DNA of 64,000 nt from positions 12,772,001 through 12,836,000 of the forward strand of contig OZ024759.1 of assembly GCA_964016885.1 (NCBI GenBank), given 5' to 3'. The position numbers and the translations under genes were made by a program. The first letter of the stretch is position 1. The number at the start of each line of letters is the position of its first letter. The notes under the pieces are model-generated. The model saw nothing but the letters and a program-made list of their open reading frames with translations. It was not told the DNA's origin and ran no database searches. The stretch comes from Eledone cirrhosa. Lineage: Eukaryota. Positions 16,498-61,019 of the stretch are shown here, in pieces.

Positions 16498-17835
16498 ATA
16501 ATAATAATGAAATTATTGTGTAAAGTGCTCAGGTGCACTACAACTCGTCAAAGGTGTATGTATAGTACATAGAATAATACACAAATGTCAGGGAAGTACA
16601 TGTGTGTATGTGTTAGCTGTAGTGTTGGCGGATCTCGGGAAGCATGGAGGCCTTAAAGGATGCGGTGTCTCGACAGCTAACAACTGATGCAGGTAGTTTG
16701 TTCCATGCTTCAGCAACTCTGGGCGTGAAAAAATGTTTCCGAAAGTCATGGGAACTGTGCTGTTTTCTGACTTTGTAGGTATGCCCACGTGTGTTAGACA
16801 CATGGAAATCAAAAAGGTACTCAGGGTTGTTGTTGGCAACATGGTTAACAATTTTGTGGGTGTTTACTAAATCATTTGCCAGGCGTCGGAGCTTCAATGT
16901 ATCCATGCCCAGGGAAGCAAGGCGCTCAGAGTATGGTAGATGCCTGATGGAGGGTATTCGCTTGGTTGCACGTCCCTGAACAGTTTCCAGGCGGTCAATA
17001 TTCTGAGCAAGATAGGGGTTCCAGACTGGTGATGCAAATTCTAAGTGTGGTCACACCATAGCCATGTACAGCCTTAAATAGATAGCTGGAGAGCGGCTGA
17101 CAAAGGTCTTGCTGAGTGATGCTAAGACACCCTCGGCCCTCTTGACAATTTTAGAGACGTGCCTCGTCCAACGCAAATCGCTGCTGACCGTAATGCCCAG
17201 GTCACGTTCACAAGAAGACTTCTTGATATGAGTGCTGTGGAGGGAGTATGTGGACGCTGGGTTTTTACTCCCAAAATGCATGGTGGTGCACTTGTCCACA
17301 GCTAGCTTGAGTTGCCAGTCTGAGATCCATTGTTGCATTTTGTCCAGGTCAGACTGCAAGCAAGATCTATAGTGTTCAGGATCTGTCCTTTTTATCTCAA
17401 GGTACAGCTTGATGTCGTCTGCGTACTTTAGTACTGTGGCATTCTTTAAGTTGGCATCTATGTCATTAATATATGCCACAAACAAAAGGGGGCCAAGAAC
17501 AAATCCCTGTGGTACACCAGATGACATCTCATGTGGTGAGGAATGCTGTCCCAGAACCTTGACTACCTCTCTTCGACTGAGAATGAAGGACTTCAACCAG
17601 TTAAAAAGATCATCCTTCACACCCATTGCAGAGAGTTTTGCCATAAGCCTTTTGTGTGGCACAGAATTGAAGGCTTTCGCAAAGTCAAGGTAAACAACAT
17701 CCACCCATGAGCCGCCATCAGTGATCCGGGTGATGTCCTCAAGAAACTCTATCAGTTGATCACAGCAGCTGGAGTTGGGGATAAATCCAAATTGCGAGGG
17801 CCGGATAAGACTGTGAGAGCTCCAGAAGTTCCAAA
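16498..17835 (-). mobile_element. 5'-truncated CR1-clade LINE (RT domain and C-terminus), inserted in the left palindrome arm
   Basis: DVVYLDFAKAF, SGVPQG.VLGPLLF, YADD, LQSDLD, TRGH..K...RV...WNKLP motifs; one in-frame TGA at ~17051; (ATT)n tail near 16498. Confidence 0.93.
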
Positions 17836-19152
17836 GTGTATAGAGGTATGTAATGTTATCTTTGCTGTATATTATCGAAGAAACTAAACCTTCTCTCTAT
17901 ACACATACATTTTATTAGATACACACTTTATGTCAATAAACCTCACATACATTTTGGATATTGTGTTTATGTGAAGAGGCTTTTTATGTGGCTTTCTGGC
18001 ACATCTTAATATTAATCAGAATCTTTTGGAACTGTCATCTTTGATCAAGATCAATATTATATCCGTCTTGTTTTGAACGAAATTTTTTTTTAGATATGAT
18101 CATCGTAATCAACGATTAACTGTTGGTCAGTACTAACTAGATCGATATCATTTTAATATACGTAGCATAGAACCATTTAGATTCTTCTTACGAAACTTCA
18201 TTTACTTTCTTTGTTCGTTTTCAACACTTCATTTCCATTCTTAGTTTCATTCTTTAGAAACTTGATTTACATTAAACTTCATTTACATTCTTAGTTTAGT
18301 TACCTCCCTCGATGTAGGAAAGGTTTTCTTGTTTCCTCTGTTTAATTCTATATATAATAAAAGACAAAATGTAAAATACTTTCATTTCCTTTTACCGATG
18401 TCCAGCCTTCAAGGTCATATGCTGTGTTGTTTGCCGTAACAAGTGGGAATGGTGAAGTTTCTGTTAATAAAAAAGGTTACATATTATATACAAATCATGT
18501 TCAGTTTATTTTTACAAAAATGAATAAAGAAATCAAGTAGAGGTTTACCTTTTAACTAGGTCCAGCAGTTGCCTCAAAAGGTAGATGGCATACGTAGTAC
18601 TTTTACCTGTCACAAATCCAAACTATAGAGGTATGTAATGTTTTCTTTGCTCTATACACATACATTTTATTAGATACACATTTATGTCAACAACTCTCAC
18701 ACTTTGGATCTTGTGTTCATGTGGCTTTCTGGCACATCTTCACCCACTCAACATGCTTTCTTTGAAATTAAAAAATAATACACATACAAATAGTGTTACC
18801 CCTTCTAAGAAACTAAACCATCTCAACACTATATACATACTTTCTAACTCAAATTTGTCTCTATAAACCTCATTCCGTAGATCTTTCTTTAGAGACATAC
18901 ATATAAAACGTTATATGTTTTTATGTATAAGCACAAGCAATCATACACATTCTACATATTGTACTCAAGAAAGCTAGCTAATCGATGTCTTATATACGTT
19001 TTATAGTCTTTCATTGATGTATTACTAAATGATACAATGAAAGATATATTCTTTTGATGTTACAATATTAAAGAAAATGTAAAGGAAGGGGTGAAAAACA
19101 GAGCCAACACCAGAGCAAAAGATAGCAACGTCGCGAGTGCTGGGCAACTTCT

Positions 19153-20340
19153 CTAATGATTTTTGAGGCAAGCCAGCACACTCGCAGCGTTACCTCGGGT
19201 GATGGCGAGGCTGATGCACTGAAGCAGCCAAGCACCCTCGCAAGATTCGCCAGTTATCTCTATTAGGTGAGCCGCCAGTGAGGAAATGAACCTCGCAGTC
19301 AGCGGCCCGACTCCCCCAAACGTCTCGAAAGCCACAGGCTGAAAAATGTAGCTGGCCGACAGATGAGAGTATTTGAAGGTCTTACTCCGCTCGGCTGCAG
19401 AAGCTGTGGCTCTCGTCCTAACCGCAGCATCCAGGATGTGGGAAAGAGCAAAAGAGTCACTAACTGTGACGTTCCAGACAAGGCACCTGCCTCTCGATCT
19501 GGGGCACAGGGTAAGACCGTCAGGTCTTTTGCCGTCACTTCTGGACAACCCAGATGGTTCTAAGACCGAGGGGGGGCCAACGCTCTCTTCAGAATGAGGT
19601 TTAGCTACGTGTGACGCGCGAAGAGGGCGGCAAGAAAGATCATGGAGGCCTGTAGAGTCGAGGAGTTTGCCGCATCGGCACCTCAAACCTATGCAGACGT
19701 CAGCTCCCACTCTGAGGGCGATGGAGACACGAAGTTCGTCCAGGTTGAGTAGGCCACCAACGTTAGCCACGAGTAGGGCATCGACCCAGTCGCCTGAGTA
19801 TTTGGAGCTGGCAGATAGTAAGCGGCACCTTGCAAGCTGATCTGACTGGACGAAAAGGAGTCGAGCCCAACTCACTCCATTGCTGGAGAGCAGAGGATGT
19901 TGCTCACCAGGGTTGAGCAAGTGTGGGTGGAGGAAAGGAAACCGGGGAGAGAGAGGGACGAACACTTACGAAGACCAAGACCCCCAAATCGCTTGGGCAA
20001 CGCAGCCTGATCGCGGGACTCCGGAGAGAGTCTAACATTGACCAGGCACTCGAATCTCTCGAAGATTAGGTAGTCGAAGCGTTGGAGGCAGGACGGAAAT
20101 CTGTGAGAGGGGCTGACCCTGAGCAGATACAGAAGCTTAGGAATAGACAGGTAGTTCCTGAGTATGAAGAAACCTTGATGGGGTTCGATAACTTCGATAT
20201 TCCTCAGCAGCTGCTCAAGGCCAACCATCTTCGATTGGAAGGTTGACTCGAAGGCCAGGTCTGTGATTGGGGCTCCTAAGGACCACCAAACCGACGGGGG
20301 AGGGACCGCAATGGAAGGGAAGGACTCTGCGAACAGGTCG
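19153..20340 (-). mobile_element. 5'-truncated non-LTR retrotransposon with restriction-like endonuclease, CRE-clade-like, frameshifted
   Basis: Thumb motif LP.RFGGLG, zinc finger C.CG......GLH.LSC, RLE motif KRPDGLT....W.VTV.D...E..K..KY, and F.P.AFET.G. Confidence 0.8.
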
Positions 20341-21329
20341 ATCGTTATAATTCACTATGTTTGCATTGGGCTAAAATGATTCATAATGATGCAAACACCC
20401 AGACATATAAAACTATATACTCTCTCTCAACTAAGAAAAATATATAAACCTTCTTCTCTAGACCTTTCCTTTTTTCTTCTAATAAACCTCTATACACAGC
20501 TACATTTTATTATCTTCTCTATTTCTTTCACACGTGTCCTCTTGTATGTAGTGAGAAACCTTTGTGAGAATCGAACTCACGATTGTAAAGTCCGACAACT
20601 TTACATAAATACTTTGCGCATTGATGTCCAATTTTTACGGCGCATGCGTACTTTAGTAAAATTAAATGGCCGCATGAAGAACTTCATGTTTTACAACGTG
20701 AATTAAAAAAACGTTAAAAACTTGGATTTTACTCATTTTACGGAGGTAAAGTAAAGCTTTATTTTATGTTGACCAGTTTTGAAACATTTTCTGTTTATTT
20801 CCCTCCATAATGTCAGAATTATTTAAACATTAGTTTTGTTTAGCGACATCTTACATTCTAATGTAATACAACACCCCCCTCATACATATTTCTTGCTCAT
20901 ACGAAATAGTGTATTTTATTAATTATTATTTAAGCTGGTAAATAATATACTTCTATTTCCCTTCATGATATCCTCGTATTTTGTAATCAGAGGTTAACTG
21001 TTGATCAGTGTTAATTAGATCGATATCGCTTTAACTTTTAAAATACAACCATTTATATTCTTAGTTTCTTACGCTAGAAACTTCATTTACATTTTTAGTT
21101 TCTTTTTTTCAACACTTCATCTACATTCTTAGTTTCCTTCCAACAATATTATTTAGACGATAGTTTTGTTTAAGCTACTGCCACATTTCTCTGTCATATG
21201 AATTAGAATTTAGCTTATTTTCTTTCTTATTTAAATAATATATTTCTAGTTCCCTTCACGATATCCTCGTGTTTTGTTGTAAATTCGTTTTGGAGGACTT
21301 GCTCCTGTCACACATGATGTTGGTTGCTA

Positions 21330-21510: not shown

Positions 21511-22650
21511 TAACCAGAATCTTTTTAGATCTGTCGTCTTGTTTTGGCCATAAAACTTAGGTTTTGTACCCATTTTTTTTAATAGATACCATGATCGTAA
21601 TATAAGATTAACTGTTGATCAGTGTTAACTAGATCGATATCACTTTAACCTACGTAACATAGAACGATTTACATTCTTAGTTTCTTCTTACGAAACTTCA
21701 TTTACTTTCTTTGTTCCTTTTCAACACTTTATTTACATTCTTAGTTTCCTTTCTTTAGAAACTTCATTCATAGTTTCTTTTTCCATTTACATGCTTAATT
21801 TTAGACACTTCATATACATTTTTAGTTTCTTTCTTCAGAAACTTCATCTACAGTCTTGGTTGTTTTTTTAGATATCATCATCATTAACCAGATCGATATC
21901 GCTTTAACTTTTAATCTACGTAACAAATAACCATTTACATTCTTAGTTACTCCCTCGATGTAGGAAAAGGTTTTCTTCTTTCGTCTAGTTAAATGTATAA
22001 AAGACAAAATTGGACGAATTTTATAAAGTTTAACATTCTTTTTATTGATAACGTATGTAAATGACTTTCATTTCTTTTACAGATGTCCAGCCTTCAAGTT
22101 CCTCTGCTGTGTTGTTTGCCGTAACAAGCGGGAATGGTGTAGTTTCTTTTAATAAAGAAAGTTTACACATTATATACGAATTGTATTGTTTATTTTTCCA
22201 AAAATGAATAAAGAAAGTTTACATCTTATATACGAATTGTGTTCAGTTTATGTTGACAAAAATGAATAAAGAAATCAAGAGTCTACAAGAAACTAAGTAA
22301 GCCGTGCTATAAAGAACGTAAGTGTATTGAAGTTTCTAAATAAAGAAACTAAGAGTAAGATAAAGTTTCCTGAAAGAAACTGAGAAAGATGAAGTTTCTA
22401 AATAAAGAAACTAAGAGGTAGATAAAGTTTCTTGAAAGAAACTGAGATTAACGAAATTTCTAAATAAAGAAACTAAGAATGTTTTTGAAATTATCGAGAG
22501 AAAAAATCTATGAAATAAGACCCCCTCTTTTTAATTTTTTTTATTAAAGGGAGGTAACTCTGTAATATTTTGAAACGAATTACCTCCCTTGCAGAAACAC
22601 CTTCGTCACCGTTGTTACCACCGTCGCCACCTTCGTAACCGTCGTCACCA

Positions 22651-22905
22651 TTACCGCCGCCACCTGGTGGCGGAGGTAAAGATACCGACGAAGACGAAGG
22701 TGCACCGTCGTCTTCGTCGATATCTTTACCGCCGCCACCTGGTGGCGGAGGTGAAGACACCGACGAAGACGAAGGTGCACCGTCGTCTTCGTCGATATCT
22801 TTACCGCCGCCACCTGGTGGCGGAGGTGAAGACACCGACGAAGACGACGGTGCACCTTCGTCGTCGTCGGTATCTTTACCTCCGCCACCAGGTGGCGGCG
22901 GTAAT
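22651..22905. repeat. GC-rich 75-bp tandem units, each made of two palindromes
   Basis: ttaccgccgccacc recurs at 22651, 22726 and 22801. Hairpins are ccgccacc(t/a)ggtggcgg and gacgaagacga(a)ggtgcaccgtcgtcttcgtc. Confidence 0.92.
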
Positions 22906-23749
22906 GGCGACGACGGTTACGAAGGTGCCGACGGTGGTGCTGATAACGATGGTGACGAAGGTGGTGATTTTGCAAGGGAGGTAATTCTTTCAAAATATTT
23001 CAGTTACCTCCCTTGAATAATAAAAAAAAAAGCGTCCCATTTCATAGATTTTTCTTTCGACAATTTCAAAAACATTTTGTTTCTTTTAGAAACTTCATTA
23101 TTTTTAGTTTCTTTATCATTTTTTAGAAACTTCATCTTTCTCAGTTTCTTTCAGGAAACTTTATCTACCTCTTAGTTTCTTTATTTAGAAACTCCAATAC
23201 ACTTACGTTCTTTATAGCACGGCTTACTCAGTTTCTTGTAGACTCTTGATTTCTTTATTCATTTTTGTCAAAATAAACTGAACACAATTCGTATATAAGA
23301 TGTAAACTTTCTTTATTCATTTTTGTCAAAATAAACTGAACACAATTCGTATATAAGATGTAAACTTTATTTATTCATTTTTGGAAAAATAAACAATACA
23401 ATTCGTATATAAGATGTAAACTTTCTTTATTCATTTTTGAAAAAATAAACAATACAATTAGTATATAATATGTAAACTTTCTTTATTAAAAGAAACTACA
23501 CCATTCCCGCTTGTTACGGCAAACAACACAGCAGAGGAACTTGAAGGCTGGACATCGGTAAAAGAAATGAAAGTCATTTACATACGTTATCAATAAAAAG
23601 AATGTTAAACTTTATAAAATTCATCCAATTTTGTTTTTTATTATATATACATTTAAAATAGAGGAAACTAAGAATGTATATGAAGATTCTAGAAAGAGAA
23701 ACTAGGAATGTAGATGAAGTGCATAAAGAAGAATGTAATTGGTTATTTG

Positions 23750-26297: not shown

Positions 26298-29175
26298 CAT
26301 CTCGTGAAATAGCGGAGATGCTGGAGAGAAGGCATGTGGATGTGTGCTGCGTGCAAGAGGTAAGATGGAGATGTGCCTCTGCGAGACTAATCGCAGGCAA
26401 ACATCTTAATTATAAGCTTTTCTGGGTAGGTAAGGATGATGGGTTAGGGGGAGTAGGCATTTTCCTGGCTGAGAGATGGATCAATAAGACAATAGAGGTA
26501 GTTTGAGTTAGTAATCGAATAATTAAGCTTAGATTAGTTGTAGGTAGGAGACTACTGACAATCTTCTCTGCCTATGCTCCCCAAGCAGGCCTAGGTAAAG
26601 AAGAGAAAGACTGCTTTTACAAGCAACTTTTACAAACAGCTGCAATGACAGAGGACGGAGACATCGTTATGCTAGCAGGAGACTTCAATGGTCATGTTGG
26701 ACAACTCCAGGATGGTTACACTGGGGTTAATGGTGGGCATGGTTACAGCTCAAGAAATGAAGGAGTGAGACTTCTTGAATTTTGTGACGCAAATACACTG
26801 ACTATTTGCAACACTAACTTCCAGAAACCTGCCAGCCACCTAATAACCTACAAACCAGGCAAGCACTTAAGCCAGATGACTTCTTACAAGTTAGGCAGCG
26901 GGACAGCCAGATGGTGTCAAATACCAAGGCATACTCTGGGGAAGAATGCACCCCACAGCATAGGTTAGTCGTTAGTGATATCTCAGTAAGCAAGAGATGG
27001 AATGAGACCTACAGGAAGGTGTGGAGAAGAAAGGTCTGGAAGCTAAAAGACCTTTCACTAAAATACAAATGTAGGAAAGCCCTTCAAGATGTGTATGACG
27101 AAAAAGAAGACGATTTAGAGTCGTATGACATAGATAATAACTGGAATTTCTTACGTGACAATTTACTACAGGCTACTGATTAAACTTGTGGCTGGAGCAG
27201 AGCTCCAACCAGACAGAGAGTGACCTGGTGGTGGAACAGCACAGTAGATAATGCCATTAGATACAAAAGACTAGCATGGAAGGCTTGGAAAAAGGGTGGG
27301 AGTAGAGAATGATATACAGCCGCTAAGAGAGAAGTTAGACGTCAGGTGTACTTAACACGCAGGGAGGCTGAGAGTAGGAGGTTTGCCAATGTTCTGCGAC
27401 GGGAAGATCACAGGCGTGCGGTGTTCCACATTGCAAGGCAGTGTGTCAATGCAAATCAGGGTGTTGTTGGAGATAAACGTGTCCGGAATGATGCCGGTGT
27501 ACTTAGTGTCATGAATGATCAGAAAAAGGATGCCTGGAAATGTCATTATGAGAGACTGATGAATGTGGAGAACGAATGGGAGAGAGAGAAATTACCCTTA
27601 GTAGATCCAACAGAGGGACCAGCCATTGAGATTGACGAATATAGGGTCCAAGAAGTGATTAAGGAAATGAAAAATGGTAAGGCTGCTGGACCATCGGGAA
27701 TAGTTGCTGAAGACATCAGGGGTCGTAGACACTAAACTGGTTGCACGCATAATCAATCAGGCTACATATGGTGGTGCCATACCCAAAGACTGGTGCAGCA
27801 GTATTCTCATAAATTGCTACAAAGGTAAAGGGGATGCTCTGGAGAGGAGCAATTATAGGGGTATAAAACTGATAGATCAGGTTATGAAAGTGGCAGAAAG
27901 GATATTAGCACAACTAATTAGAGAAAGGGTCAAACTAGATGAGATGCAGTTTGGTTTTGTGCCTAGGAAGAGTACAACAGATGCCCTCTTCTTGGTGAGA
28001 CAATTGCAAGAGAGGTTCTTAGAGAAAAATAAGCCACTATACTTAGCCTTTGTTGACCTAGAGAAGGCCTTTGATAGGGTACCCCGATCTGTCATCTGGT
28101 GATCCCTAAGGAAACTAGGTGTTGAGGAATGGTTTGTGAGGACAGTGCAAACTTTGTACAGAGGTACTCTCAGTAAAGTCAGGGTAGGAATGGAGTTTAG
28201 TGAGGAATTACAGATACAAGTGGGAGTACATCAAGGTTCGGTCCTCAGCCCGCTCTTGTTTATTATAGTCCTCGAAGCCATAACAGAGGAGTTTAAGACT
28301 GGCTGTCCATGGGAACTTCTCTATGCTGACGATCTGGTTCTTATAACAGAATCAGTAGAGGAGCTAGAGAATAAATTCTGGCTATGGAAACAGCAGTTGG
28401 AAGCAAGAGGACTGAGAGTGAACCTAGCTAAGACAAAACTCTGATTCTGTCAGGGAAATGGCCATGTTCGATATGCAGAAAAGGAACTGGCATAAATTCT
28501 ATAAAATGCACACAATGCAGATCCTGGGTACACAAGAGATGTAGCGGGATAGCAGGCAAACTAACAGGTAGAAAGAAATATGTATGCAGTAGATGTACAG
28601 CGAAATTAGACAGTAGAAGTCGCATTGATAGACACATTTTTCAAATGCAGGCGGGTGCTATAGAAGTGGTGGATAGCTTCCGGTACCTAGGAGATCAGAT
28701 TAGCATGGGATGGGGGGGGGGGGGGGGTTCTGAGGCCATAGTATCTAGAATAAGTGTGGGTTGGAAGAAGTTTAGGGAGCTGCTTCCTCTGCTGACGAAG
28801 AAGGGTTTCTCCCTGCATACGAAAGGCCGGTTATATGATGCCAATGTGAGGAGCGCGATGCTGCATGGTAGTGAGACTTGGGCAGCAACTGCAGAGGATG
28901 TGCGACGGCTGGAGAGAAATGAGGCAAGCATGCTCCTTTGGATGTGCAGTGTAAATGTGCATGAACGACCCAGCATGGATGTGTTGAGAGAGAAACTGTG
29001 TCTGAGAGGGATAGAATGTAATGTGTGAGAGAGGAGACTGAGGTGGTATGGACATGTGATACGCATGGAGGATGACCGATGGGTGAAGAAGTGTCAGGAA
29101 ATGCCAGTTGAAGGAAGACGTGGTAGAGGTAGACCACAAAAAACATGGGCGGGGAAGTTGAGAACAAACCCTAAG
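26298..29175 (+). mobile_element. Near full-length decayed RTE-clade LINE ORF (APE endonuclease + RT), multiple stops and frameshifts
   Basis: VDVCCVQEVRW, GDFNGHVG, NYRGIKL, FVDLEKAFDRVPR, GVHQGSVLSPLLF, LLYADD, RWYGHV motifs. Confidence 0.95.
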
Positions 29176-29204
29176 ACCTTCTTTAAATATGCAAAAGAGA
29201 CTGC

Positions 29205-30658
29205 CTTAGGGTTTGTTCTCACCACCTCCGCCCATGCTTTTCGTGGTCTACTTCTACCACGTCTTCCTTCAACTGGCACTTCTTTACCCATCGGTCATCC
29301 TCCATGCGCATCATATGTCCATACCACCAGTCTCCTCTCTCGCACACTACATTCAATCCCTCTCAACACATCCAACGGAGCATACTTGCCTCATTTCTCT
29401 CCAGCCATCGCTGCCCAAGTCTCTCTACCATGCAGCATCGCGCTCCTCACACAGGCATCATATAACCAGCCTTTCTAACGCAGGGGAAAACCCTTCTTCG
29501 CCAGCAGCTCCCTAAACTTCTTCCAACCCCTCATTCTAGATACTATGGCCTCGGAACACCCCTCCTTCCATGCTAATCTGATCTCCTAGGTACCGGAAAC
29601 TATCAACCACTTCTATAGCACCCGCATGCATTTGAAAAATGTCTATCAATGCGACTTCTACTGTGATCTGCGATTTCCCTGTACATCTACTGAATACGTA
29701 TTTCTCCCTACCTGTTAGTTTGCCTGCTATCCCACTACATCTCTTGTGTACCCAACATCTGCATTGTGTGCATTTTATAGAATTTATGCCAGTTCCTTTT
29801 CTGCATATTGAAGATGGCCATTTCCCTGACGGAATCAAAGTTTTGTCCTCTTTTCTACTCATCAACAATTTTGTCTTAGCTAGGTTCACTCTCAGTCTTC
29901 TTGCTTCCATACCTTGAATTTATTCTCTAGCTCCTCTACAGATTCTGCTATAAGTACCAGATCGTCAGCATAGAGAAGTTCCCATGGACAGCCAGTCTTA
30001 AACTCCTCTGTCATGGTTTGGAGGACTATAATAAACAAGAGCGGGCTGAGCGCTGAACCTTGCTGTACTCCAACTTGCATCTGGAATTCCTCACTAAACT
30101 CCATTCCTACCCTGACTTTACTGACAGCACCTCTGTACACAGTTTGCACTGTCCTCACAAGCCATTCCTCAACACCTAGTTTCCTTAGGGATCACCAAAT
30201 GACAGATTGGGGTACCCTATCAAAGGCCTTCTCTAGGTCAACAAAGGCTAAGTATAGTGGCTTATTCTTCTCTAAGAACCTCTCTTGTAATTCTCACCAA
30301 GAAGAGGGCATCTGTTGTACTTTTCCCAGGCACAAAACCAAACTGCATCTCATCTAGTTTGACCCTTTCTCTAATTAGTTGTGCTAATATCCGTTCTGCC
30401 ACTTTCATAACCTGATCCATCAGTTTTATACCCCTATAATTGCTCCTCTCCAGAGCATCCCCTTTACCTTTGTAGCAATTTATGAGAATACTGCTGCACC
30501 AGTCTTTGGGTATGACACTACTATATATAGCCTGATTGATGATGCGTGCAACCAGTTTAGTGCCTACGTCCCCTGATGCCTTCAGCATCTCAGCAACTAT
30601 CCCTGACAGTCCAGCGGCCTTACCATTCTCATTTCCTTAATTGCCTCTTGGACCCTAT
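29205..30658 (-). mobile_element. Inverted copy of the RT half of the same RTE family
   Basis: Reverse complement of 27640-29175 with independent indels; same RT motifs. Confidence 0.93.
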
Positions 30659-30667
30659 ATATATATA

Positions 30668-32011
30668 TCATCATCATCGTTTATCTTCCATGCTAGCATG
30701 TGTTTAGACAGGAATTGTCCCACGTGAGGCAAGATTGGTTGCCTTGCTCGTATAGGACTGTCTAGCGGCTTTTCTACGGCTGGATGCCCTTCCTAACACC
30801 AACAACGTTTACAGTGTGGACTGGGAGGTTTTACCGTGTTACCTACACGGCCACATTACAGCATGGACTGTGTGTCTTTTTTGTCGTGACACCTACACAA
30901 CCTCATTTATTTCGGACTGGATGTTGTGGCACCAACATAACTTTAGGTGTAGATGGGGGTAAGGGTAGTAGGGTGGGGGTGTATTTTTGGTTAGGAGGTG
31001 CCTACTGACTGTAGGTTTCGCTTTGTACTTAGGCAAGGCAGGTCTTCTGTATTACTGCGTAGCGCCAAAGATCTCGGTCCAGTGACATTGTCTTGGAGAG
31101 GTGCAAGTGTGTAAGGTCGGAATTTATCAAATCGTCCCAGGTTTTTCTGGGTCTGCCTACTCCGTAGCTTCCATCTATTTTGATTGCCCTGCACTTTTTT
31201 ATACAGCTGTCGTCTTTCATGCGCATCACGTGACCATACCAACGTAGTCTTCTCTTGAGTAAACAACATCTGAGCCCTCTTATTCCTAATTTCTCCCTTA
31301 TTACTATTACACATCCAATGGAGCATGCAAGCTTCGTTCCTCTCCAGTCTGCGCAGATCCTCTGCACACAATGCCCATGTCTCACTGCCATGTAACATTG
31401 CTGTTCGTATGCAGGCATCATACAGTCTGCCTTTAATTTTTAGGGAGAACCCTTTAGTGGCCAACAGTGGTATAAGCTCTCTGAACTTTTTCCATCCCAT
31501 TCTGACTCTAGCTACTGTACTTTCAGAGCACCCACCACCACTGCTGATTTTGTCACCCAGGTAACGGAAGGTGTCCACTATTTCTATAGAACCATCTGGG
31601 CAATGGAAGGAGCTAGTATCCTGTGGGCACTTGCTAATACTTATTGCACCAGAGCACCGGCCACATATAAAATTTACGTTCTTAGATAGCTTACCTGTGA
31701 TCCCACTACATCTTTTATGCACCCATACTTTGCATTTGGGACATAAAATGGAGTTTCTGCCTACTCCTTTCCTACACACTGAGCATGGCCATTTCCCAGA
31801 GGGTACCAGTGCCCTATTTTCCTTCCTATATACTAGAACTTTAGTCTTAGACAAGTTAATTTTAAGGCCTTTTGATTCTAGGCCATGCTTCCAAGAATTT
31901 CTTCACTAGTTCAGCCATTGATTCGGCTATGAGCGTTATATCATCTGCGTATAGAAGTTCCCATGGGCAGACGGTCTTGAACTAAGGGCAATAAAAAATA
32001 GGAGAGGGCTA

Positions 32012-37468: not shown

Positions 37469-37886
37469 CTCTTTAGCATTTAAACCAGCCACATCTGGCC
37501 AGAACCTCTCTCACCTCTTTCTGTTCAAACCAACCATGACTGGCGCCTCATACTGACGTTAAGGTATTGTTCTCAGAATAAATAACATCAAAATCTCGTA
37601 GATTTGAAATTATGTAAGGTAAAGCCTTTACCACAAAAATACAATAGTATATATAGAGTAATGTAAATGTTAAAGGGTCAAACCGGCCATATCCGGCTAG
37701 AATTCTCTCACCTCTTTCTGTTCAAACCAGCTGTAACCAGCCACTCATACTGATATTAAGGTAATGTTCTCAAAATAAATACTTTCAAAAATCTCATAGA
37801 TTCGATATTATGTGAGATATTATGTGAGGTAAGTCTTTACCGTGAAAATATAATAGTATATATAGAGTAATGTAAATGCTAAAGGG
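37469..37886 (+). mobile_element. piggyBac-like MITE, tandem dimer
   Basis: TTAA|ctctttagcattta ... taaatgctaaaggg|TTAA; the body occurs twice. Confidence 0.8.
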
Positions 37887-37894
37887 TTAACGTC

Positions 37895-41761: not shown

Positions 41762-42004
41762 CTTTTAGGTTAAGGTTGGAGAAAGAAAGAGAGAGAGGGA
41801 CAGATAAATGAATGATGCAGAAATGTTGGAGGTGGATGACAGCCACCAATCACCATGTTTCCCGCAACAGCAGCAGTCACCAAAGGAATACCAAAATATA
41901 AACCTTGCATCATTCTGAAATAGAAAGAAAAAGAAGAAATCAGAGATAAAAGTTGAGATAATTGTCATCTCTTCATTCTAACTATTGTTTCTGCCATGTT
42001 GACA

Positions 42005-46845: not shown

Positions 46846-46921
46846 ATACGTGAATGTTTCCCCAACAACTGCCCCCCCCCCCCTCCATTGTGAGAAGGTC
46901 TGACTAAACCTCTAACTTACC

Positions 46922-47025
46922 TCATTCTACACCATGGGCAAAGATCATAACCAAACCTGGCTCCAGTATCAAATCTTCAGGCATGTGTTCATTCTCACAG
47001 GACATCACTACAACAGCTTGTTTAC
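46922..47025 (-). CDS. RNF41: RNF41 last coding exon including the TGA stop
   Basis: Acceptor gttgccag|GT. Translates (G)KQAVVVMSCENEHMPEDLILEPGLVMIFAHGVE*, matching the NRDP1 C-terminus GKQAVVVM.CEN.HM....EPGLVMIFAHGVE. Confidence 0.95.
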
Positions 47026-50732: not shown

Positions 50733-50974
50733 CTGGTATTCGTTTTGTTACATAGTTCTCATACTGTCTTCGACTAAGCTGTCGTGTTTCTAGCGTACCC
50801 AATCCACGAGGCCATCGTCGTTCGTGGGCATTTTCCATAAGTTCGTTAACAATATGTGGAGGACAACCGCTATCAATAAGGGCTCGTTTAATAACAGCTT
50901 GTAACACAGTATCTGGTGTAGAAATCATACCACCCCATCGAGTAACTCGAGCTTTTTGAAGGTTTGATATCCAT
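50733..50974 (-). CDS. RNF41: RNF41 coding exon, USP8-interacting C-terminal domain, 242 nt, phase 2/1
   Basis: Acceptor ctctcag|A, donor CCAG|gtgact. Translates WISNLQKARVTRWGGMISTPDTVLQAVIKRALIDSGCPPHIVNELMENAHERRWPRGLGTLETRQLSRRQYENYVTKRIP, containing the hallmark NRDP1 motif ARVTRWGGMISTPD. Confidence 0.97.
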
Positions 50975-51847: not shown

Positions 51848-52552
51848 ATAGGGAGAAAAAGACGATTATTAGGAAGAAAAATATTTTTCTTTCCTTTTAT
51901 TTTTTTCCTCTTTTTTCTGGGTTAGAAAATGTTTAAAACAAAATATTTTACTTTGTGTGAAGTGTTAAGGTATTAGTTAATTTATTTATTAATTAACAAT
52001 GGCATTTATTTATTTATTTATATATTTAATAACTGTCAATTACCGGTTTCAGCATTTTATGCAATATAAAAGGGGGGAATATGTATTGGTATAAAATGTT
52101 GGAGAGAAAATAATGTGATGTTGAACATGTTCAGGAAATGGGAAAGAAAGAATAATATTGTTTACAAACAAGGTTTTTGAAGTAAAAAGAAAAAAAAGAG
52201 GGTGATGTGGAACATGATAAGGTAATGGGAAAGAAAGAATAATATTATTTACAGGCATAGTTCTTGAGGATAAACAGTTCAAAATGTGTTATTATGGCAA
52301 GAGCGCTTGGCTGGTCCATAATGCGCTGGATCGAGTTTTACGCCGGCATATATGATATATCTCAGAAAAATTTTTTTACTGCATTAATACAATATTATTT
52401 TACATTTGTATAAGTTTTTAACTAATGATATATCTTCTAAACATTTTCAAATCTTTCTATAGTAAAAAGTTTTAGAATAACAAGTACTGCAATTTTATCT
52501 CATAAAAACATCCTTTCTAACAGCTCCTGCTACAACCAATTAACAACATTAA

Positions 52553-53120
52553 CCCTTTAGCATTTAAACTGGCCATATCCAGCCAGAATTCTCTCATCTC
52601 TTTCTTATTAAACTGGCCTTAACTGGCTACTTATACTGATGTTAAGGTATTGTTCTCAAAATAAATAATATCAAAATCTTGTAGATTCGATATTTTGTGA
52701 GATAAAGCCTTTACTGTGAAAATATAATAGTATATATAGAGTAATGTAAATATTATGTGAGATATTATGTGAGGTAAAGCCTTTACTGTGAAAATACAAT
52801 AGTATATATAGAGTAATGTAAATATTATGTGAGATATTATGTGAGGTAAAGCCTTTACTGTGACAATACAATGGTATATATAGAGTAATGTAAATGTTAT
52901 GTGAGATATTATGTGAGGTAAAGCCTTTACTGTGAAAATACAATAGTATATATAGAGTAATGTGAATGTTATGTGAGATATTATGTGAGGTAAAGCCTTT
53001 ACTGTGAAAATACAATAGTATATATAGAGTAATGTAAATGTTATGTGAGATATTATGTGAGGTAAAGCCTTTACTGTGACAATACAATAATATATATAGA
53101 GTAATGTAAATGCTAAAGAG
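52553..53120 (+). mobile_element. piggyBac-like MITE with ~6 internal 72-bp repeats
   Basis: TTAA|ccctttagcattta ... taaatgctaaagag|TTAA. Confidence 0.85.
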
Positions 53121-53477: not shown

Positions 53478-56400
53478 TACTGTTTCCACAGACCTGTAAT
53501 ACTGTCTAGTGCTACTACACACCTGTAATACTGTCTACTGTTACTACACACCTGTAATACTGTCTACTGTTACTACACACCTGTAATACTGTCTAGTGTT
53601 ACTACACACCTGTAATACTGTCTACTGTTACTACACACCTGTAATACTGTCTACTGTTACTACACACCTGTAATACTGTCTACTGTTACTACACACCTGT
53701 AATACTGTCTACTGTTACTACACACCTGTAATACTGTCTAGTGTTACTACACACCTGTAATACTGTCTACTGTTACTACACACCTGTAATACTGTCTACT
53801 GTTACTACACACCTGTAATACTGTCTAGTGTTACTACACACCTGTAATACTGTTTACTGTTACTACACACCTGTAATACTGTCTACTGTTACTACACACC
53901 TGTAATACTGTCTACTGTTTCCACAGACCTGTAATACTGTCTACTGTTACTACACACCTGTAATACTGTCTACTGTTACTACACACCTGTAATACTGTCT
54001 ACTGTTACTACACACCTGTAATACTGTCTAGTGTTACTACACACCTGTAATACTGTCTACTGTTACTACACACCTGTAATACTGTCTACTGTTACTACAC
54101 ACCTGTAATACTGTCTACTGTTACTACACACCTGTAATACTGTTTACTGTTACTACACACCTGTAATACTGTCTACTGTTACTACACACCTGTAATACTG
54201 TCTACTGTTACTACACACCTGTAATACTGTCTACTGTTACTACACATCTGTAATACTGTTTACTGTTACTACACACCTGTAATACTGTCTAGTGTTACTA
54301 CACACCTGTAATACTGTCTACTGTTACTACACACCTGTAATACTGTCTAGTGTTACTACACACCTGTAATACTGTTTACTGTTACTACACACCTGTAATA
54401 CTGTCTAGTGTTACTACACACCTGTAATACTGTTTACTGTTACTACACACCTGTAATACTGTCTAGTGTTACTACACACCTGTAATACTGTTTACTGTTA
54501 CTACACACCTGTAATACTGTCTACTGTTACTACACACCTGTAATACTGTCTACTGTTACTACACACCTGTAATACTGTCTACTGTTACTACACATCTGTA
54601 ATACTGTTTACTGTTACTACACACCTGTAATACTGTCTAGTGTTACTACACACCTGTAATACTGTCTACTGTTACTACACACCTGTAATACTGTCTACTG
54701 TTACTACACATCTGTAATACTGTTTACTGTTACTACACACCTGTAATACTGTCTAGTGTTACTACACACCTGTAATACTGTCTACTGTTACTACACACCT
54801 GTAATACTGTCTACTGTTACTACACACCTGTAATACTGTCTACTGTTACTACACACCTGTAATACTGTCTACTGTTACTACACACCTGTAATACTGTTTA
54901 CTGTTACTACACACCTGTAATACTGTCTACTGTTACTACACACCTGTAATACTGTCTACTGTTACTACACACCTGTAATACTGTCTACTGTTACTACACA
55001 CCTGTAATACTGTCTAGTGCTACTACACACCTGTAATACTGTCTACTGTTACTACACACCTGTAATACTGTCTACTGTTACTACACACCTGTAATACTGT
55101 CTACTGTTACTACACACCTGTAATACTGTCTACTGTTTCCACAGACCTGTAATACTGTCTACTGTTACTACACACCTGTAATACTGTCTACTGTTACTAC
55201 ACACCTGTAATACTGTCTACTGTTACTACACACCTGTAATACTGTCTACTGTTACTACACACCTGTAATACTGTTTACTGTTACTACACACCTGTAATAC
55301 TGTCTACTGTTACTACACACCTGTAATACTGTCTACTGTTACTACACACCTGTAATACTGTCTACTGTTACTACACACCTGTAATACTGTCTACTGTTAC
55401 TACACACCTGTAATACTGTTTACTGTTACTACACACCTGTAATACTGTCTACTGTTACTACACACCTGTAATACTGTCTACTGTTACTACACACCTGTAA
55501 TACTGTCTACTGTTTCCACAGACCTGTAATACTGTCTACTGTTACTACACACCTGTAATACTGTCTACTGTTACTACACACCTGTAATACTGTCTACTGT
55601 TACTACACACCTGTAATACTGTCTACTGTTACTACACACCTGTAATACTGTCTACTGTTACTACACACCTGTAATACTGTCTACTGTTACTACACACCTG
55701 TAATACTGTCTACTGTTACTACACACCTGTAATACTGTCTAGTGTTACTACACACCTGTAATACTGTCTACTGTTACTACACACCTGTAATACTGTCTAG
55801 TGTTACTACACACCTGTAATACTGTCTACTGTTACTACACACCTGTAATACTGTCTACTGTTACTACACACCTGTAATACTGTTTACTGTTTCCACAGAC
55901 CTGTAATACTGTCTACTGTTACTACACACCTGTAATACTGTCTACTGTTACTACACACCTGTAATACTGTCTACTGTTACTACACACCTGTAATACTGTC
56001 TAGTGTTACTACACACCTGTAATACTGTCTACTGTTACTACACACCTGTAATACTGTCTACTGTTACTACACACCTGTAATACTGTCTACTGTTTCCACA
56101 GACCTGTAATACTGTCTACTGTTACTACACACCTGTAATACTGTCTACTGTTACTACACACCTGTAATACTGTCTACTGTTACTACACACCTGTAATACT
56201 GTTTACTGTTACTACACACCTGTAATACTGTCTAGTGTTACTACACACCTGTAATACTGTCTACTGTTACTACACACCTGTAATACTGTCTACTGTTACT
56301 ACACACCTGTAATACTGTCTACTGTTACTACACACCTGTAATACTGTTTACTGTTACTACACACCTGTAATACTGTCTACTGTTTCCACAGACCTGTAAT

Positions 56401-56665
56401 ACTGTCTACTGTTACTACACACCTGTAATACTGTTTACTGTTACTACACACCTGTAATACTGTCTACTGTTTCCACAGACCTGTAATACTGTCTACTGTT
56501 ACTACACACCTGTAATACTGTCTAGTGTTACTACACACCTGTAATACTGTCTAGTGTTACTACACACCTGTAATACTGTCTAGTGTTACTACACACCTGT
56601 AATACTGTCTACTGTTACTACACACCTGTAATACTGTCTACTGTTACTACACACCTGTAATACTA
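53478..56665. repeat. 29-bp minisatellite, ~110 copies, intronic
   Basis: Unit ctactgttactacacacctgtaatactgt. Confidence 0.98.
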
Positions 56666-56747: not shown

Positions 56748-57290
56748 CCAACCTAACAACACAGTACCAACCTAACAACAGAGTAGTAACCTAACAACAC
56801 TGTACCAACCTAACAACACAGTAGTAACCTAACAACACAGTAGTAACCTAACAACACAGTAGTAACCTAACAACACAGTACCAACCTAACAACACAGTAC
56901 CAACCTAACAACACAGTACTAACCTAACAACACAGTACTAACGTAACAACACTACCAATCTAACAACACAGTACCAACCTAACAACACCGAACTAACCTA
57001 ATGACACAGTACTAACCTAACAACACAGTATCAACCTAACAACACAGTACTAACCTAACAACATGGTACTACCTAACAATACAGTACCAACCTAACAACA
57101 TGGTACTAACCTAACAACACAGTACCAACCTAACAGCACTGTACTAACCTAACAACACAGTACTAACCTAACAACATGGTACTACCTAACAATACAGTAC
57201 CAACCTAACAACATGGTACTAACCTAACAACACAGTACCAACCTAACAGCACTGTACTAACCTAACATCATGGTACTTACCTAACAACAT
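56748..57290. repeat. ~19-bp minisatellite overlapping the exon donor site, ~28 copies
   Basis: Unit agtac(c/t)aacctaacaacac; the terminal unit ggtacttacctaacaacat is the real exon/intron junction. Confidence 0.92.
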
Positions 57291-57360
57291 CTGCATTTTC
57301 CATCTCTGACTGCATCTCTCTTATGCGAGGATTCGACACCCTCATACATCTCATGTATTC
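57281..57360 (-). CDS. RNF41: RNF41 internal coding exon, 80 nt, phase 0/2 (absent from the ORF track)
   Basis: Acceptor tgttgtag|GAA, donor TTAG|gtaagt. Translates EYMRCMRVSNPRIREMQSEMENADVV(R), similar to NRDP1 AYMRAIRSVNP...; its phase joins both neighbouring exons in frame. Confidence 0.88.
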
Positions 57361-58148
57361 CTACAACATAGAATGGTCAAGTTACAGTATTCCTACAACA
57401 TACAATGGTCAAGTTACAGTATTGCTACAACATACAATGGTCAAGTTACAGTATTGCTACAACATACAATGGTCAAGTTACAGTATTGCTACAACATACA
57501 ATGGTCAAGTTACAGTATTGCTACAACATACAATGGTCAAGTTATAGTATTGCTACAACATACAATGGTCAAGTTATAGTATTGCTACAACATACAATGG
57601 TCAAGTTACAGTATTGCTACAACATAGAATGGTCAAGTTACAGTATTGCTACAACATAGAATGGTCAAGTTACAGTATTGCTACAACATAGAATGGTCAA
57701 GTTACAGTATTGCTACAACATAGAATGGTCAAGTTACAGTATTGCTACAACATACAATGGTCAAGTTACAGTATTGCTACAACATACAATGGTCAAGTTA
57801 CAGTATTGCTACAACATACAATGGTCAAGTTACGGTATTGTTACAACATAGAATGGTCAAGTTACAGTATTGCTACAACATACAATGGTCAAGTTACAGT
57901 ATTGCTACAACATACTATGGTCAAGTTACGGTATTGCTACAACATACAATGGTCAAGTTACTTGCTACAACATAGAATGGTCAAGTTACAGTATTGCTAC
58001 AACATAGAATGGTCAAGTTACAGTATTGCTACAACATACAATGGTCAAGTTACGGTATTGCTACAACATACTATGGTCAAGTTACAGTATTGCTACAACA
58101 TACTATGGTCAAGTTACAGTATTGCTACAACATAGAATGGTCAAGTTA
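57356..58148. repeat. 32-bp minisatellite overlapping the exon acceptor site, ~25 copies
   Basis: Unit tattgctacaacatacaatggtcaagttacag; the first unit tattcctacaac... is the real intron/exon junction. Confidence 0.96.
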
Positions 58149-58149
58149 A

Positions 58150-58643
58150 CCCTTTAGCATTTAAACCAGCCGTTTCCAGCCAGAATTCTCTCAACTTTTT
58201 CTTTTCAAACCGGCCGTAACTGGGCACTCATACTGATGTTAAGTTATTGTTCTCAAAATAAAAACATCAAAATCTCATAGATTCAATGTTATGTGAGATA
58301 TTATGTGAGGTAAAGCCTTTACCGTGGAAAATACAATAGTAAAGATACAGTAATGTAAATGTTATGTAAGATATTATGTGAGGTAAAGCCTTTACTGTGA
58401 AAATACAATAGTAAATATAGAGTAATGTAAATGTTATGTGAGATATTATGTGAGGTAAAGCCTTTACTGTGAAAATACAAGAGTATATATAGAGTAATGT
58501 AAATGTTATGTGAGATATTATGTGAGGTAAAGCCTTTACTGTGACAATACAATAGTATATATAGAGTAATGTAAATGTTATGTGAGATATTATGTGAGGT
58601 AAAGCCTTTACCATGAAAATACAATAGCAAATATAGAGTAATG
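58150..58643 (+). mobile_element. piggyBac-like MITE with ~5 internal 72-bp repeats, right end truncated
   Basis: TTAA|ccctttagcattta left end; runs into a SINE-B fragment at 58650-58772. Confidence 0.8.
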
Positions 58644-59011
58644 TATTCCATTCTGAGTTCAAATCCCACCGAGGTTAACTTTGCCTTTCATCCTTACGGG
58701 GTCGATAAATTAAAGTACCAGTAATGTACTGGGTATTTGCTGGCCTTGTGCCAAACGTAGAAACAATTATTTTATGGAGTGTGAAACAAAAATATATTCT
58801 AAACAACACTTAAAACATTTTAAACAACAAAATAACAACACTTCATAAATATATTTTACTCTCATGAGAATTTCAAAACCTCACCATTTAAACATAATAT
58901 GTTGATTAGCTGCCTTGGCTTATAAACAGGGTTTGGATTCTTGCCAATTTCTCAGACATACAATAGGAGGGAGGGGAATCACCTTATATTCAAGTGTATA
59001 CGGTACTTTAA

Positions 59012-60787
59012 CTCTTTAGCATTTAAACCAGCTATGTCCAGTCAGCATTTTCTCACTTCTTTCTGTTCAAACTGGCCATAACTAGCTGCTCATACTGATG
59101 TTAAGGCATTGTTCTCAAAATGAATTATATCAAAATATCACATATTCGATATTATGTGAGATAAAGTGTTTACTGTGAAAATGCAATAGTATATATAGAG
59201 CAATGTAAATGTTATGTGAGATATTATGTGAGGTAAAGCCTTTACTGTGACAATACAATAGTATATATAGAGCAATGTAAATGTTATGTGAGATATTATG
59301 TGAGATAAAGCCTTTACTGTGACAATACAATAGTATATATAGAGTAATGTAAATGTTATGTAAGATATTATGTGAGGTAAAGCCTTTACTGTGAAAATAC
59401 AATAGTATATATAGAGTAATGTAAATGTTATGTGAGATATTATGTGAGGTAAAGCCTTTACTGTGAAAATACAATAGTATATATAGAGTAATGTAGATGT
59501 TATGTGAGATATTATGTGAGGTAAAGCCTTTACTGTGAAAATACAATAGTATATATAGAGTAATGTAAATGTTATGTGAGATATTATGTGAGGTAAAGCC
59601 TTTACTGTGAAAATACAATAGTATATATAGAGTAATGTAAATGTTATGTGAGATATTATGTGAGGTAAAGCCTTTACTGTGAAAATATAATAGTATATAT
59701 AGAGTAATGTAAATGTTATGTGAGATATTATGTGAGGTAAAGCCTTTACTGTGACAATACAATAGTATATATAGAGTAATGTAAATGTTATGTGAGATAT
59801 TATGTGAGGTAAAGCCTTTACTGTGAAAATACAATAGTATATATAGAGCAATGTAAATGTTATGTGAGATATTATGTGAGGTAAAGCCTTTACTGTGAAA
59901 ATACAATAGTATATATAGAGTAATGTAGATGTTATGTGAGATATTATGTGAGGTAAAGTCTTTACTGTGAAAATACAATAGTATATATAGAGCAATGTAA
60001 ATGTTATGTGAGATATTATGTGAGGTAAAGCCTTTACTGTGAAAATATAATAGTATATATAGAGTAATGTAAATGTTATGTGAGATATTATGTGAGGTAA
60101 AGCCTTTACTGTGACAATACAATAGTATATATAGAGTAATGTAAATGTTATGTGAGATATTATGTGAGGTAAAGCCTTTACTGTGAAAATACAATAGTAT
60201 ATATAGAGCAATGTAAATGTTATGTGAGATATTATGTGAGGTAAAGCCTTTACTGTGAAAATACAATAGTATATATAGAGTAATGTAGATGTTATGTGAG
60301 ATATTATGTGAGGTAAAGTCTTTACTGTGAAAATACAATAGTATATATAGAGTAATGTAAATGTTATGTGAGGTAAAGCCTTTACTGTGAAAATACAATA
60401 GTATATATAGAGTAATGTAAATGTTATGTGAGATATTATGTGAGGTAAAGCCTTTACTGTGAAAATATAATAGTATATATAGAGTAATGTAAATGCTATG
60501 AGATATTATGTGAGGTAAAGCCTTTACTGTGAAAATATAATAGTATATATAGAGTAATGTAAATGTTATGTGAGATATTATGTGAGGTAAAGCCTTTACT
60601 GTCAAAATATAATAGTATATATAGAGTAATGTAAATGTTATGTGAGATATTATGTGAGGTAAAGCCTTTACTGTGAAAATACAATAGTATATATAGAGTA
60701 ATGTAAATGTTATGAGATATTATGTGAGGTAAAGCCTTTACTATGAAAATATAATAGTATATATAGAGTAATGTAAATGCTAAAGAG
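59012..60787 (+). mobile_element. piggyBac-like MITE expanded by ~22 internal 72-bp repeats
   Basis: TTAA|ctctttagcattta ... taaatgctaaagag|TTAA; unit ttatgtgagatattatgtgaggtaaagcctttactgtgaaaatacaatagtatatatagagtaatgtaaatg. Confidence 0.9.
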
Positions 60788-60887
60788 TTAACAGAGAAGA
60801 ATGCTTTGAATCTTTACAAGGAAGATCCCCTTTAAAAAACCCGAAAATTTGTGATGTTGTGGAAAGAGACATTAGTAAAAGACTTAC

Positions 60888-61019
60888 TTTTAACTGTTGC
60901 ATTTCTCGTTTCTGTTCTTTAAGTTGTAATTTATGCTCCATTAGTTCTAACTGCATTTCCGACATTTTCTGTTGGTGAAGTTGCACCAGATTCCTCAGTT
61001 CTCGAACACAATTATGGTC
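60888..61019 (-). CDS. RNF41: RNF41/NRDP1 E3 ligase, internal coding exon (coiled-coil region), 132 nt, phase 0/0
   Basis: Acceptor ttgtcag|GAC, donor AAA|gtaagt. Translates DHNCVRELRNLVQLHQQKMSEMQLELMEHKLQLKEQKREMQQLK, resembling the vertebrate NRDP1 HNC...EHK.QL.EQKR..QLLK segment as recalled. Confidence 0.92.

What the first reader, a model, noticed from the sequence alone, without database searches (positions are those of the whole stretch)
56748..58148. An RNF41 exon sandwiched between tandem arrays made from its own splice junctions
Seen: both arrays overlap the 80-nt exon and are copies of its junctions. Upstream on the sense strand, ~25 32-nt units each contain a branch-point-like TTGAC, then TGTTGTAG and the first exon bases. 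The true site is TAG|GAATAC; the next unit has an identical TAG|GAATAC at 57394-57393; the rest are TAG|CAATAC. Downstream, ~28 19-nt units repeat GTTGTTAG|GT with GTTAGT, GTTGGT or GTAGTA, and only the exon-proximal unit has GTAAGT. The 32-mer carries TGA in one frame, so any upstream acceptor gives a frameshift or premature stop. Inference: the two splice sites seeded two independent minisatellites, creating ladders of decoy sites. These could tune productive splicing/NMD, or show a route to intron expansion that starts at splice junctions.
Basis: partly seen in the sequence, partly recalled or inferred. Interest (0 to 1): 0.75.

Follow-up and report, generated by a model that had tools for sequence, protein, structure and literature searches.

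The report
Splice-junction minisatellites flanking octopod RNF41 exon
Both ends of a small exon in an octopus-type ubiquitin-ligase gene have been copied head-to-tail 25-28 times into the neighbouring introns, yet the one spliced transcript we could see uses only the original splice sites, so this is likely a tolerated example of a repeat type already known from lancelets and humans rather than a splicing switch.

Summary
Observation confirmed. The 80-nt RNF41 exon (57360-57281, minus strand) is overlapped by a 32-nt x25 acceptor array and a 19-nt x28 donor array, each found only here. One spliced contig joins the neighbouring exons at exactly the exon-proximal sites. Those sites score best in each ladder, and every decoy tested would give a premature stop. 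In other genes, junction-crossing arrays are not enriched: 5 of 746 predicted junctions against 6.1 expected. This is a new member of a known kind (amphioxus 'mirages'; human F7 and ABCA7 VNTRs), and the scan already noted three such arrays elsewhere in this genome. Two things remain unexplained. RNF41 has two further junction-crossing arrays outside the window (4 of 12 junctions). Arrays in this genome also end within 100 nt of exons about 2.6 times more often than a uniform model predicts. A regulatory NMD role is unsupported but untested for rare isoforms. Interest 0.33.

The parts
57281..57360 (-). RNF41/NRDP1 coding exon B, 80 nt (EYMRC...ADVVR)
57355..58148 (-). 32-nt minisatellite, 24.9 copies, spanning the exon-B acceptor; 24 decoy acceptor positions
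56750..57289 (-). 19-nt minisatellite, 28.6 copies, spanning the exon-B donor; holds a 113-nt higher-order duplication (57261-57149 repeated at 57148-57036)
57361..57362 (-). Acceptor AG used in the transcript contig (score 6.0, best of 25)
57393..57394 (-). Strongest decoy acceptor TAG|GAATAC (score 5.0); use would add 32 nt and give a premature stop
57275..57280 (-). Donor GTAAGT used in the transcript contig (score 11.8; decoys 8.7 or less); its TAA is in frame and stops any exon extension
60888..61019 (-). Upstream RNF41 exon A (132 nt), spliced to exon B
50733..50974 (-). Downstream RNF41 exon C (242 nt), spliced to exon B
46921..47025 (-). Last coding exon D with stop codon (donor 2 nt after the stop is predicted only)
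58150..58645 (.). Abundant dispersed element ending in AAAGGG followed by TTAA (58149-58146), abutting the far end of the 32-mer array; 'piggyBac-like end' is a recalled label
53478..56664 (.). Unrelated 29-nt minisatellite (110 copies) 86 nt beyond the 19-mer; touches no RNF41 exon

Best explanation
The two arrays are tandem copies of the exon's own acceptor and donor junctions, and they are likely tolerated 'mirage' minisatellites that enlarge the introns without changing the main mRNA. Shown: the unit composition, the conserved exon, the use of the exon-proximal sites in one contig, and a premature stop for every decoy tested. Inferred: a short duplication across each junction left the reading frame intact, because the copy nearest the exon restores the original exon while all other copies fall in the intron. 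Slippage and unequal exchange then amplified and homogenised the units. Inferred: the spliceosome picks the proximal pair through exon definition and first-donor scanning (as shown for human F7), helped here by the proximal sites being the strongest. Rare slips would be removed by NMD. The exon sits in a very repeat-rich region where arrays crowd up against exons, which makes a doubly hit exon an expected tail event in a 3-Gb genome.
For: Run X1 gives one 1620-nt contig (depth 37) joining exon A to 57360 and 57281 to exon C, with no other contig laid. True sites rank first under matrices trained on this genome: donor 11.8 vs 8.7 or less, acceptor 6.0 vs 5.0 and then 3.9 or less. Background genes: 5 of 665 junctions crossed vs 5.4 expected and 0 of 81 vs 0.67; pooled 5 of 746 vs 6.1. 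At the exon-proximal array rate, 17.7 crossings would be expected in the 665, so crossings look depleted (P=4e-4). Arrays fill 146 of 464 kb around the gene. In three neighbouring genes 0 of 22 junctions are crossed and 5 of 22 have an array end within 100 nt. About 9-140 doubly crossed exons are expected per assumed 200,000 exons. The same structure with normal splicing is described in amphioxus (PMC3087553, PMC3902484) and human F7 (PMC1557585).
Against: RNF41 has 4 of 12 junctions crossed. Leaving out the two that were selected, 2 of 10 vs 5 of 746 gives Fisher P=0.003, or binomial P=0.005-0.028 at local rates, so this gene is more affected than a uniform model predicts. The two exon-B junctions resemble each other (P about 0.003-0.005, post hoc). 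All decoys are weaker than the true sites, which a purely neutral model does not require: three background cases carry identical-strength copies. The RNA evidence is one contig from one sample whose run type is not on record, and contigs drop rare variants.
Confidence: 0.74

Rival explanations
1. Some exon borders, or some genes such as RNF41, are hot spots where one mechanism repeatedly seeds arrays at or next to splice sites (for example template switching between the two similar ends of an exon, or damage near exons), so the two arrays are not independent.
For: 4 of 12 RNF41 junctions are crossed and a fifth is abutted. Array ends lie 1-100 nt inside introns in 36 cases vs 13.9 expected; the rate is 6.6 vs 2.5 per 10 kb of unmasked sequence near vs far. 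The acceptor and donor junctions of exon B align better than those of any of 270 control exons (P about 0.003-0.005 after removing array-derived letters). Both arrays carry TACTGT, which neither true junction has.
Against: There is no excess of crossings in 746 background junctions and 0 of 22 in neighbouring genes. The near-exon excess may reflect older, transposon-free DNA beside exons, because my repeat mask came from only about 1.5 Mb. The 32- and 19-nt units are no more alike than a third of random unit pairs (483 of 1452), and ACTGT is common in local arrays generally (35 of 139 vs 9 in shuffles). The replication set alone was not significant (3 vs 1.5).
Confidence: 0.15
2. The ladders act as a dosage dial: decoy sites are used at a low, length-dependent rate and send RNF41 mRNA to NMD, as reported for the ABCA7 VNTR.
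For: All 24 decoy acceptors and all 26 decoy donors tested give stops at least 260 nt before the last coding junction. Ten decoy donors score 8.7, above the sample median of 8.2. The precedent is one-unit retention and lower expression with longer alleles in ABCA7 (PMC5954066, passages).
Against: Only the proximal junctions are seen in the contig. The stop after any decoy donor is the true donor's own TAA, so it needs no array. In F7, identical downstream donors are not used (PMC1557585). There is no evidence of conservation.
Confidence: 0.08
3. The arrays are assembly artefacts.
For: No DNA contig spanned exon B and its flanks.
Against: Units carry ten sequence variants in ordered blocks. DNA runs hold 32-mer contigs at depth 75-164 against 2.8-7.8 at exon A (not a copy number, and these runs may be the assembly's source).
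Confidence: 0.02

Closest known systems
Amphioxus 'mirages' (Adh3, globins BflGb6 and BflGb9, troponin C, PGBD5; PMC3087553 and PMC3902484, passages read)
   Same: Minisatellite-like tandem copies of an exon-intron boundary lying in the intron, at 5' or 3' boundaries; many units keep AG/GT; splicing reported as normal; unit sizes of 10-72 bp in Adh3 cover 19 and 32.
   Different: Here the animal is an octopod, both ends of one 80-nt exon are hit, and there are 25-28 copies (the globin cases have 3-6 units of about 150-160 bp). The Adh3 paper was not held, so I could not check whether a doubly flanked exon was described there.
Human F7 intron 7 37-bp VNTR (PMC1557585; abstract and discussion read)
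   Same: The first unit spans the exon-intron boundary; downstream pseudo-donors stay silent and the most upstream donor is used.
   Different: F7 pseudo-sites are identical to the true donor, whereas here all are weakened at +3 or beyond; F7 has no matching acceptor array.
Human ABCA7 intron 18 25-bp VNTR (PMC5954066; passages read)
   Same: The array starts at the donor GT; use of the next unit gives a frameshift and premature stop.
   Different: In ABCA7, one-unit retention and a length-expression link are observed; neither is shown here.
Variable internal tandem repeats at exon-intron boundaries of human paralogs (PMC2812944; passages read)
   Same: Tandem repeats at exon-intron boundaries that alter intron content.
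   Different: Those often produce alternative transcripts or new introns; none is seen here.

Membership tests
Mirage (splice-junction minisatellite) | Minisatellite-like tandem array | tested here: met
   Periods 32 and 19, with 24.9 and 28.6 copies
Mirage (splice-junction minisatellite) | Unit spans an exon-intron boundary of the host gene, with the extra copies in the intron | tested here: met
   19-mer = 10 exon + 9 intron bases; 32-mer = intron end + first 6-8 exon bases; exon limits from the contig; units found only at this locus
Mirage (splice-junction minisatellite) | Many units keep AG or GT signals | tested here: met
   23 of 24 decoy acceptors keep AG; 26 of 27 downstream units begin with GT
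Mirage (splice-junction minisatellite) | Regular mRNA is spliced at the original sites | tested here: met
   One spliced contig, one sample; minor forms cannot be seen in contigs
Mirage (splice-junction minisatellite) | Length differs between alleles or cells | not testable with these tools
   No second haplotype or long reads; a 113-nt block duplication shows past turnover only
Mirage (splice-junction minisatellite) | Boundary units escape homogenisation | tested here: inconclusive
   Proximal 19-mer unit has 4 mismatches to consensus vs 0-2 for the other full-length units; proximal 32-mer unit has 2 vs 0-3
Splice-tuning VNTR (ABCA7 type) | Decoy use gives a premature stop | tested here: met
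   24 of 24 acceptors and 26 of 26 donors tested
Splice-tuning VNTR (ABCA7 type) | Decoy sites are used in transcripts | tested here: inconclusive
   None in the single contig; no raw RNA reads were offered
Splice-tuning VNTR (ABCA7 type) | Array length changes isoform ratio or expression | not testable with these tools
   Needs several genotyped individuals with RNA

The most novel reading that the evidence does not exclude
Octopod minisatellites are born preferentially beside exons and cluster in particular genes, so the genome carries on the order of a few thousand splice-site ladders (0.7% of junctions in my sample; about 2,700 if there are 400,000 junctions). RNF41, with four crossed junctions, would be a hot spot whose ladders have different outcomes: NMD at exon B, and an in-frame N-terminal extension at the first coding exon, where 20 equally strong acceptors precede the start codon.
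Probability: 0.17. Interest if true: 0.62.

Novelty: new member of a known kind. Interest (0 to 1): 0.33.

Why it matters
As a single locus it matters little: it is a tidy example of a described repeat type. Its value is as a natural test of splice-site choice in an invertebrate with long introns. One exon faces 24 decoy acceptors and 27 decoy donors at fixed steps, and the same gene has a ladder of equal-strength acceptors. If the near-exon excess of arrays holds genome-wide, it would point to a mutational bias in how octopod introns grow. In five searches of the held literature (listings only) I saw no paper on such arrays in cephalopods.

Tried and rejected
(1) No run is on record as RNA (no RNA holder listed); X1 was judged RNA-like only because its contig is spliced. 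No raw reads were available, so rare isoforms could not be counted. (2) The idea that the 29-, 23-, 31-, 36- and 37-nt arrays of the window also derive from RNF41 junctions was rejected: none touches exons A-D. (3) The idea that the adjacent transposon end seeded the 32-mer has no support: 2 of 152 locus-unique arrays abut one of 300 such end motifs, about what I estimate by chance. (4) A common ancestor of the 32- and 19-nt units has no support; the likeness of the spacer beyond the 19-mer to the 32-mer is weak (P 0.02-0.035). (5) The idea that arrays persist only if decoys are weakened is not general: identical-strength copies occur at C11, C27 and C1636 and at the RNF41 first coding exon. 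(6) Orthologous introns could not be compared, because no related genome is held. (7) The Adh3 mirage paper was not held. No supplements were read; they could bear on whether a doubly flanked exon was already reported. (8) The region downstream of G000:C20:12692001 was not sampled, so the neighbour test rests on three genes.

Full report
1. Observation. Tandem Repeats Finder reports a 32-nt array at 57355-58148 (24.9 copies, 96% matches) and a 19-nt array at 56750-57289 (28.6 copies, 85%). On the minus strand they overlap an 80-nt segment, 57360-57281, that reads EYMRCMRVSNPRIREMQSEMENADVV(R). The 19-mer is the last 10 exon bases plus the first 9 intron bases. The 32-mer is the intron end plus the first 6-8 exon bases, with 1-2 nt lost at the joint. 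A genome search with each array returned only this locus (11 and 7 matches; the tool warns that it skips very common words).

2. The gene. Exons A (61019-60888), B, C (50974-50733) and D (47025-46921) join in frame and tile Pfam PF08941 USP8_interact. Homologs are NRDP1/RNF41. The exon-B peptide is identical in O. bimaculoides, O. sinensis and Argonauta hians, so the animal is an octopod and the exon is older than the arrays (inference). The genome has 3.0 Gb and no held relatives.

3. Transcript evidence. Four runs hold exon C, none on record as RNA. In X1 a single 1620-nt contig (depth 37.3) covers exon A, with loose ends that read into exon B at 57360. The same contig covers exactly 57281-57360, with loose ends equal to exon A and exon C. 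X2-X4 run through the intron at exon A and so behave as DNA. They hold 62-nt contigs of the 32-mer at depth 75-164 against 2.8-7.8 at exon A, which fits a real multi-copy array but is not a copy number and may not be independent of the assembly. So the exon is real and the main form uses the proximal sites. Rare forms cannot be seen in contigs, and this is one sample.

4. Strength and consequence of decoys. With position matrices trained on predicted junctions of this genome, the true donor scores 11.8 and decoys 8.7 or less. The true acceptor scores 6.0, the next 5.0 and the rest 3.9 or less. All 24 decoy acceptors give a stop at least 315 nt before the C-D junction. All 26 decoy donors tested (2 degenerate positions left out) give a stop at least 260 nt before it, and that stop is the TAA inside the true GTAAGT. 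Skipping the exon also shifts the frame.

5. Is it general? I sampled exons by Pfam searches of the genome: kinase, myosin, Ras and kinesin, then DEAD and ABC as a second set. I used the 120 loci returned, typed 289 of the 313 other match rows (24 long, overlapping or stop-rich rows dropped), and fetched 140 of 218 planned regions, favouring multi-exon clusters and smaller chromosomes. A further 98 exons came from protein similarity (1 of 99 dropped as off-frame). Junctions are predicted, not RNA-based. First set: 5 of 665 junctions are crossed by a local array (4 independent events; two are paralogous copies) vs 5.4 expected if arrays arise uniformly; for arrays of 8 or more copies, 0 vs 1.4. 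Second set: 0 of 81 vs 0.67. Pooled: 5 of 746 vs 6.1, upper 95% rate 1.5%. There is no enrichment. However, array ends 1-100 nt inside the intron number 36 vs 13.9 expected. After masking repeats the rate is 6.6 per 10 kb near exons vs 2.5 at 401-1500 nt. At that near rate 17.7 crossings are expected, so crossings look depleted (P=4e-4), as purifying selection would give. The mask came from only about 1.5 Mb and the distance analysis is sensitive to differences between genes, so the near-exon excess is suggestive only.

6. RNF41 itself stands out. Outside the window, the 300-nt exon at G000:C20:12846156-12845857 has a 67-nt x9 array starting at its donor (only the final AG of the exon is shared) and a 35-nt x9 array ending 11 nt before its acceptor. 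The first coding exon (12965408-12965308) has a 54-nt x21 array spanning its acceptor and 20 exon bases. All 20 upstream copies read ATA where the true copy has the start ATG, and their acceptors score 12.2-12.6 against 12.2. That makes 4 of 12 junctions crossed. Without the two selected ones, 2 of 10 vs 5 of 746 gives P=0.003, or 0.005-0.028 at local rates. The surroundings temper this: 146 of 464 kb are arrays, and three neighbouring genes (C2-domain, ACBP-ankyrin and nucleoside hydrolase; 8 of 11 exons with a Pfam hit) have 0 of 22 junctions crossed but 5 of 22 with an array end 16-81 nt away. At such a density a few crossings among 34 junctions are expected (my estimate, about 2). The two exon-B junctions also resemble each other, scoring above all 270 control exons. 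After array-derived letters are removed the chance level is about 0.003-0.005; this was noticed after the fact.

7. Mechanism. Most likely a short duplication across each junction placed all extra copies in the intron and left one intact junction next to the exon. Slippage and unequal exchange then amplified the units; the 113-nt block duplication in the 19-mer shows such turnover. The spliceosome keeps using the proximal pair through exon definition, first-donor scanning and higher site strength, and NMD would clear slips. The sequence anatomy, the proximal splicing in one contig and the stops are shown; the history and the selection rule are inferred.

8. Known relatives. Earlier notes of this scan pointed me to the amphioxus 'mirages' and the F7 VNTR, and they report three more such arrays in this genome (NEDD4, fasciclin, ECM29; loci not checked by me). 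I read the passages. Mirages are minisatellite-like duplications of intron-exon boundaries, at either boundary, that do not disturb splicing (PMC3087553; PMC3902484). In F7 only the most upstream of identical donors is used (PMC1557585, abstract and discussion). In ABCA7 one unit is sometimes retained and expression falls with length (PMC5954066, passages). Repeats at exon-intron boundaries can form new introns (PMC2812944, passages). PMC4039745 (passages) concerns a dispersed C. elegans minisatellite and does not bear on this case. The finding meets four mirage features, one is inconclusive and one untestable.

9. Verdict. The feature is real, a new member of a known kind, and most likely tolerated (0.74). 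The regulatory reading has no support so far (0.08). The open lead is the clustering in RNF41 and the near-exon excess of arrays (0.15-0.17). Interest 0.33.

Noticed in passing
L331:1588-2742 (G000:C20:12965389-12966543): 54-nt x21 array across the acceptor and start codon of RNF41's first coding exon. Upstream copies have ATA for ATG and equal-strength acceptors. Each unit holds another ATG in frame with no stop (open frame 427 aa), so decoy use would extend the N-terminus rather than trigger NMD.
   Followed up: partly
L202:9218-9858 and L203:168-469 (G000:C20:12845218-12846469): A second RNF41 exon (300 nt) is flanked by a 67-nt x9 array that repeats AG|GTCAGT from its donor and a 35-nt x9 pyrimidine-rich array ending 11 nt before its acceptor.
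   Followed up: partly
L047 (C11:46630627), L164 (C27:20314097), L114/L111 (C1636:259098 and 373410), L147 (C15:13221855): Four other junction-crossing arrays in myosin, Rab, kinesin and kinase genes (units 64, 129, 119-120 and 38 nt), three of them with decoys identical in strength to the true site. The C27 Rab exon also has a 35-nt x52 array ending 3 nt before its acceptor.
   Followed up: partly
background loci L002-L330: Locus-specific minisatellites end within 100 nt of splice junctions about 2.6 times more often than a uniform model predicts (36 vs 13.9), while crossings are not enriched.
   Followed up: partly
all sampled arrays: Units of locus-specific arrays are rich in ACAGT/ACTGT (24 of 97 vs 8.7 expected; 35 of 139 vs 9 in shuffles) and poor in A-runs; TACTGT is commoner on C20 (8 of 35) than elsewhere (3 of 104). 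Cause unknown.
   Followed up: partly
window 57349-57372 and 57269-57292: The acceptor and donor junctions of exon B form an imperfect direct repeat (18 matches, 4 one-base gaps), higher than any of 270 control exons.
   Followed up: partly
window 58150-58645, 59011-60790, 52552-53120, 37800-37890: Very abundant short element with AAAGGG-TTAA ends and an internal 72-nt array of variable length; dozens of copies in the 1.5-Mb sample.
   Followed up: no
window 46921-46912 and about 41913: A strong donor lies 2 nt after the RNF41 stop codon, and the transcript contig has about 385 nt more beyond exon D, which suggests a 3' UTR intron; a strong acceptor near 41913 is a candidate.
   Followed up: no
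window 22309-23487: Palindromic structure with a 75-nt GC-rich repeat at its centre and 56- and 31-nt repeats in the arms.
   Followed up: no
window 16616-20351 and 27355-31902: Broken reverse-transcriptase-like reading frames of non-LTR type (labels from my reading of the translations).
   Followed up: no
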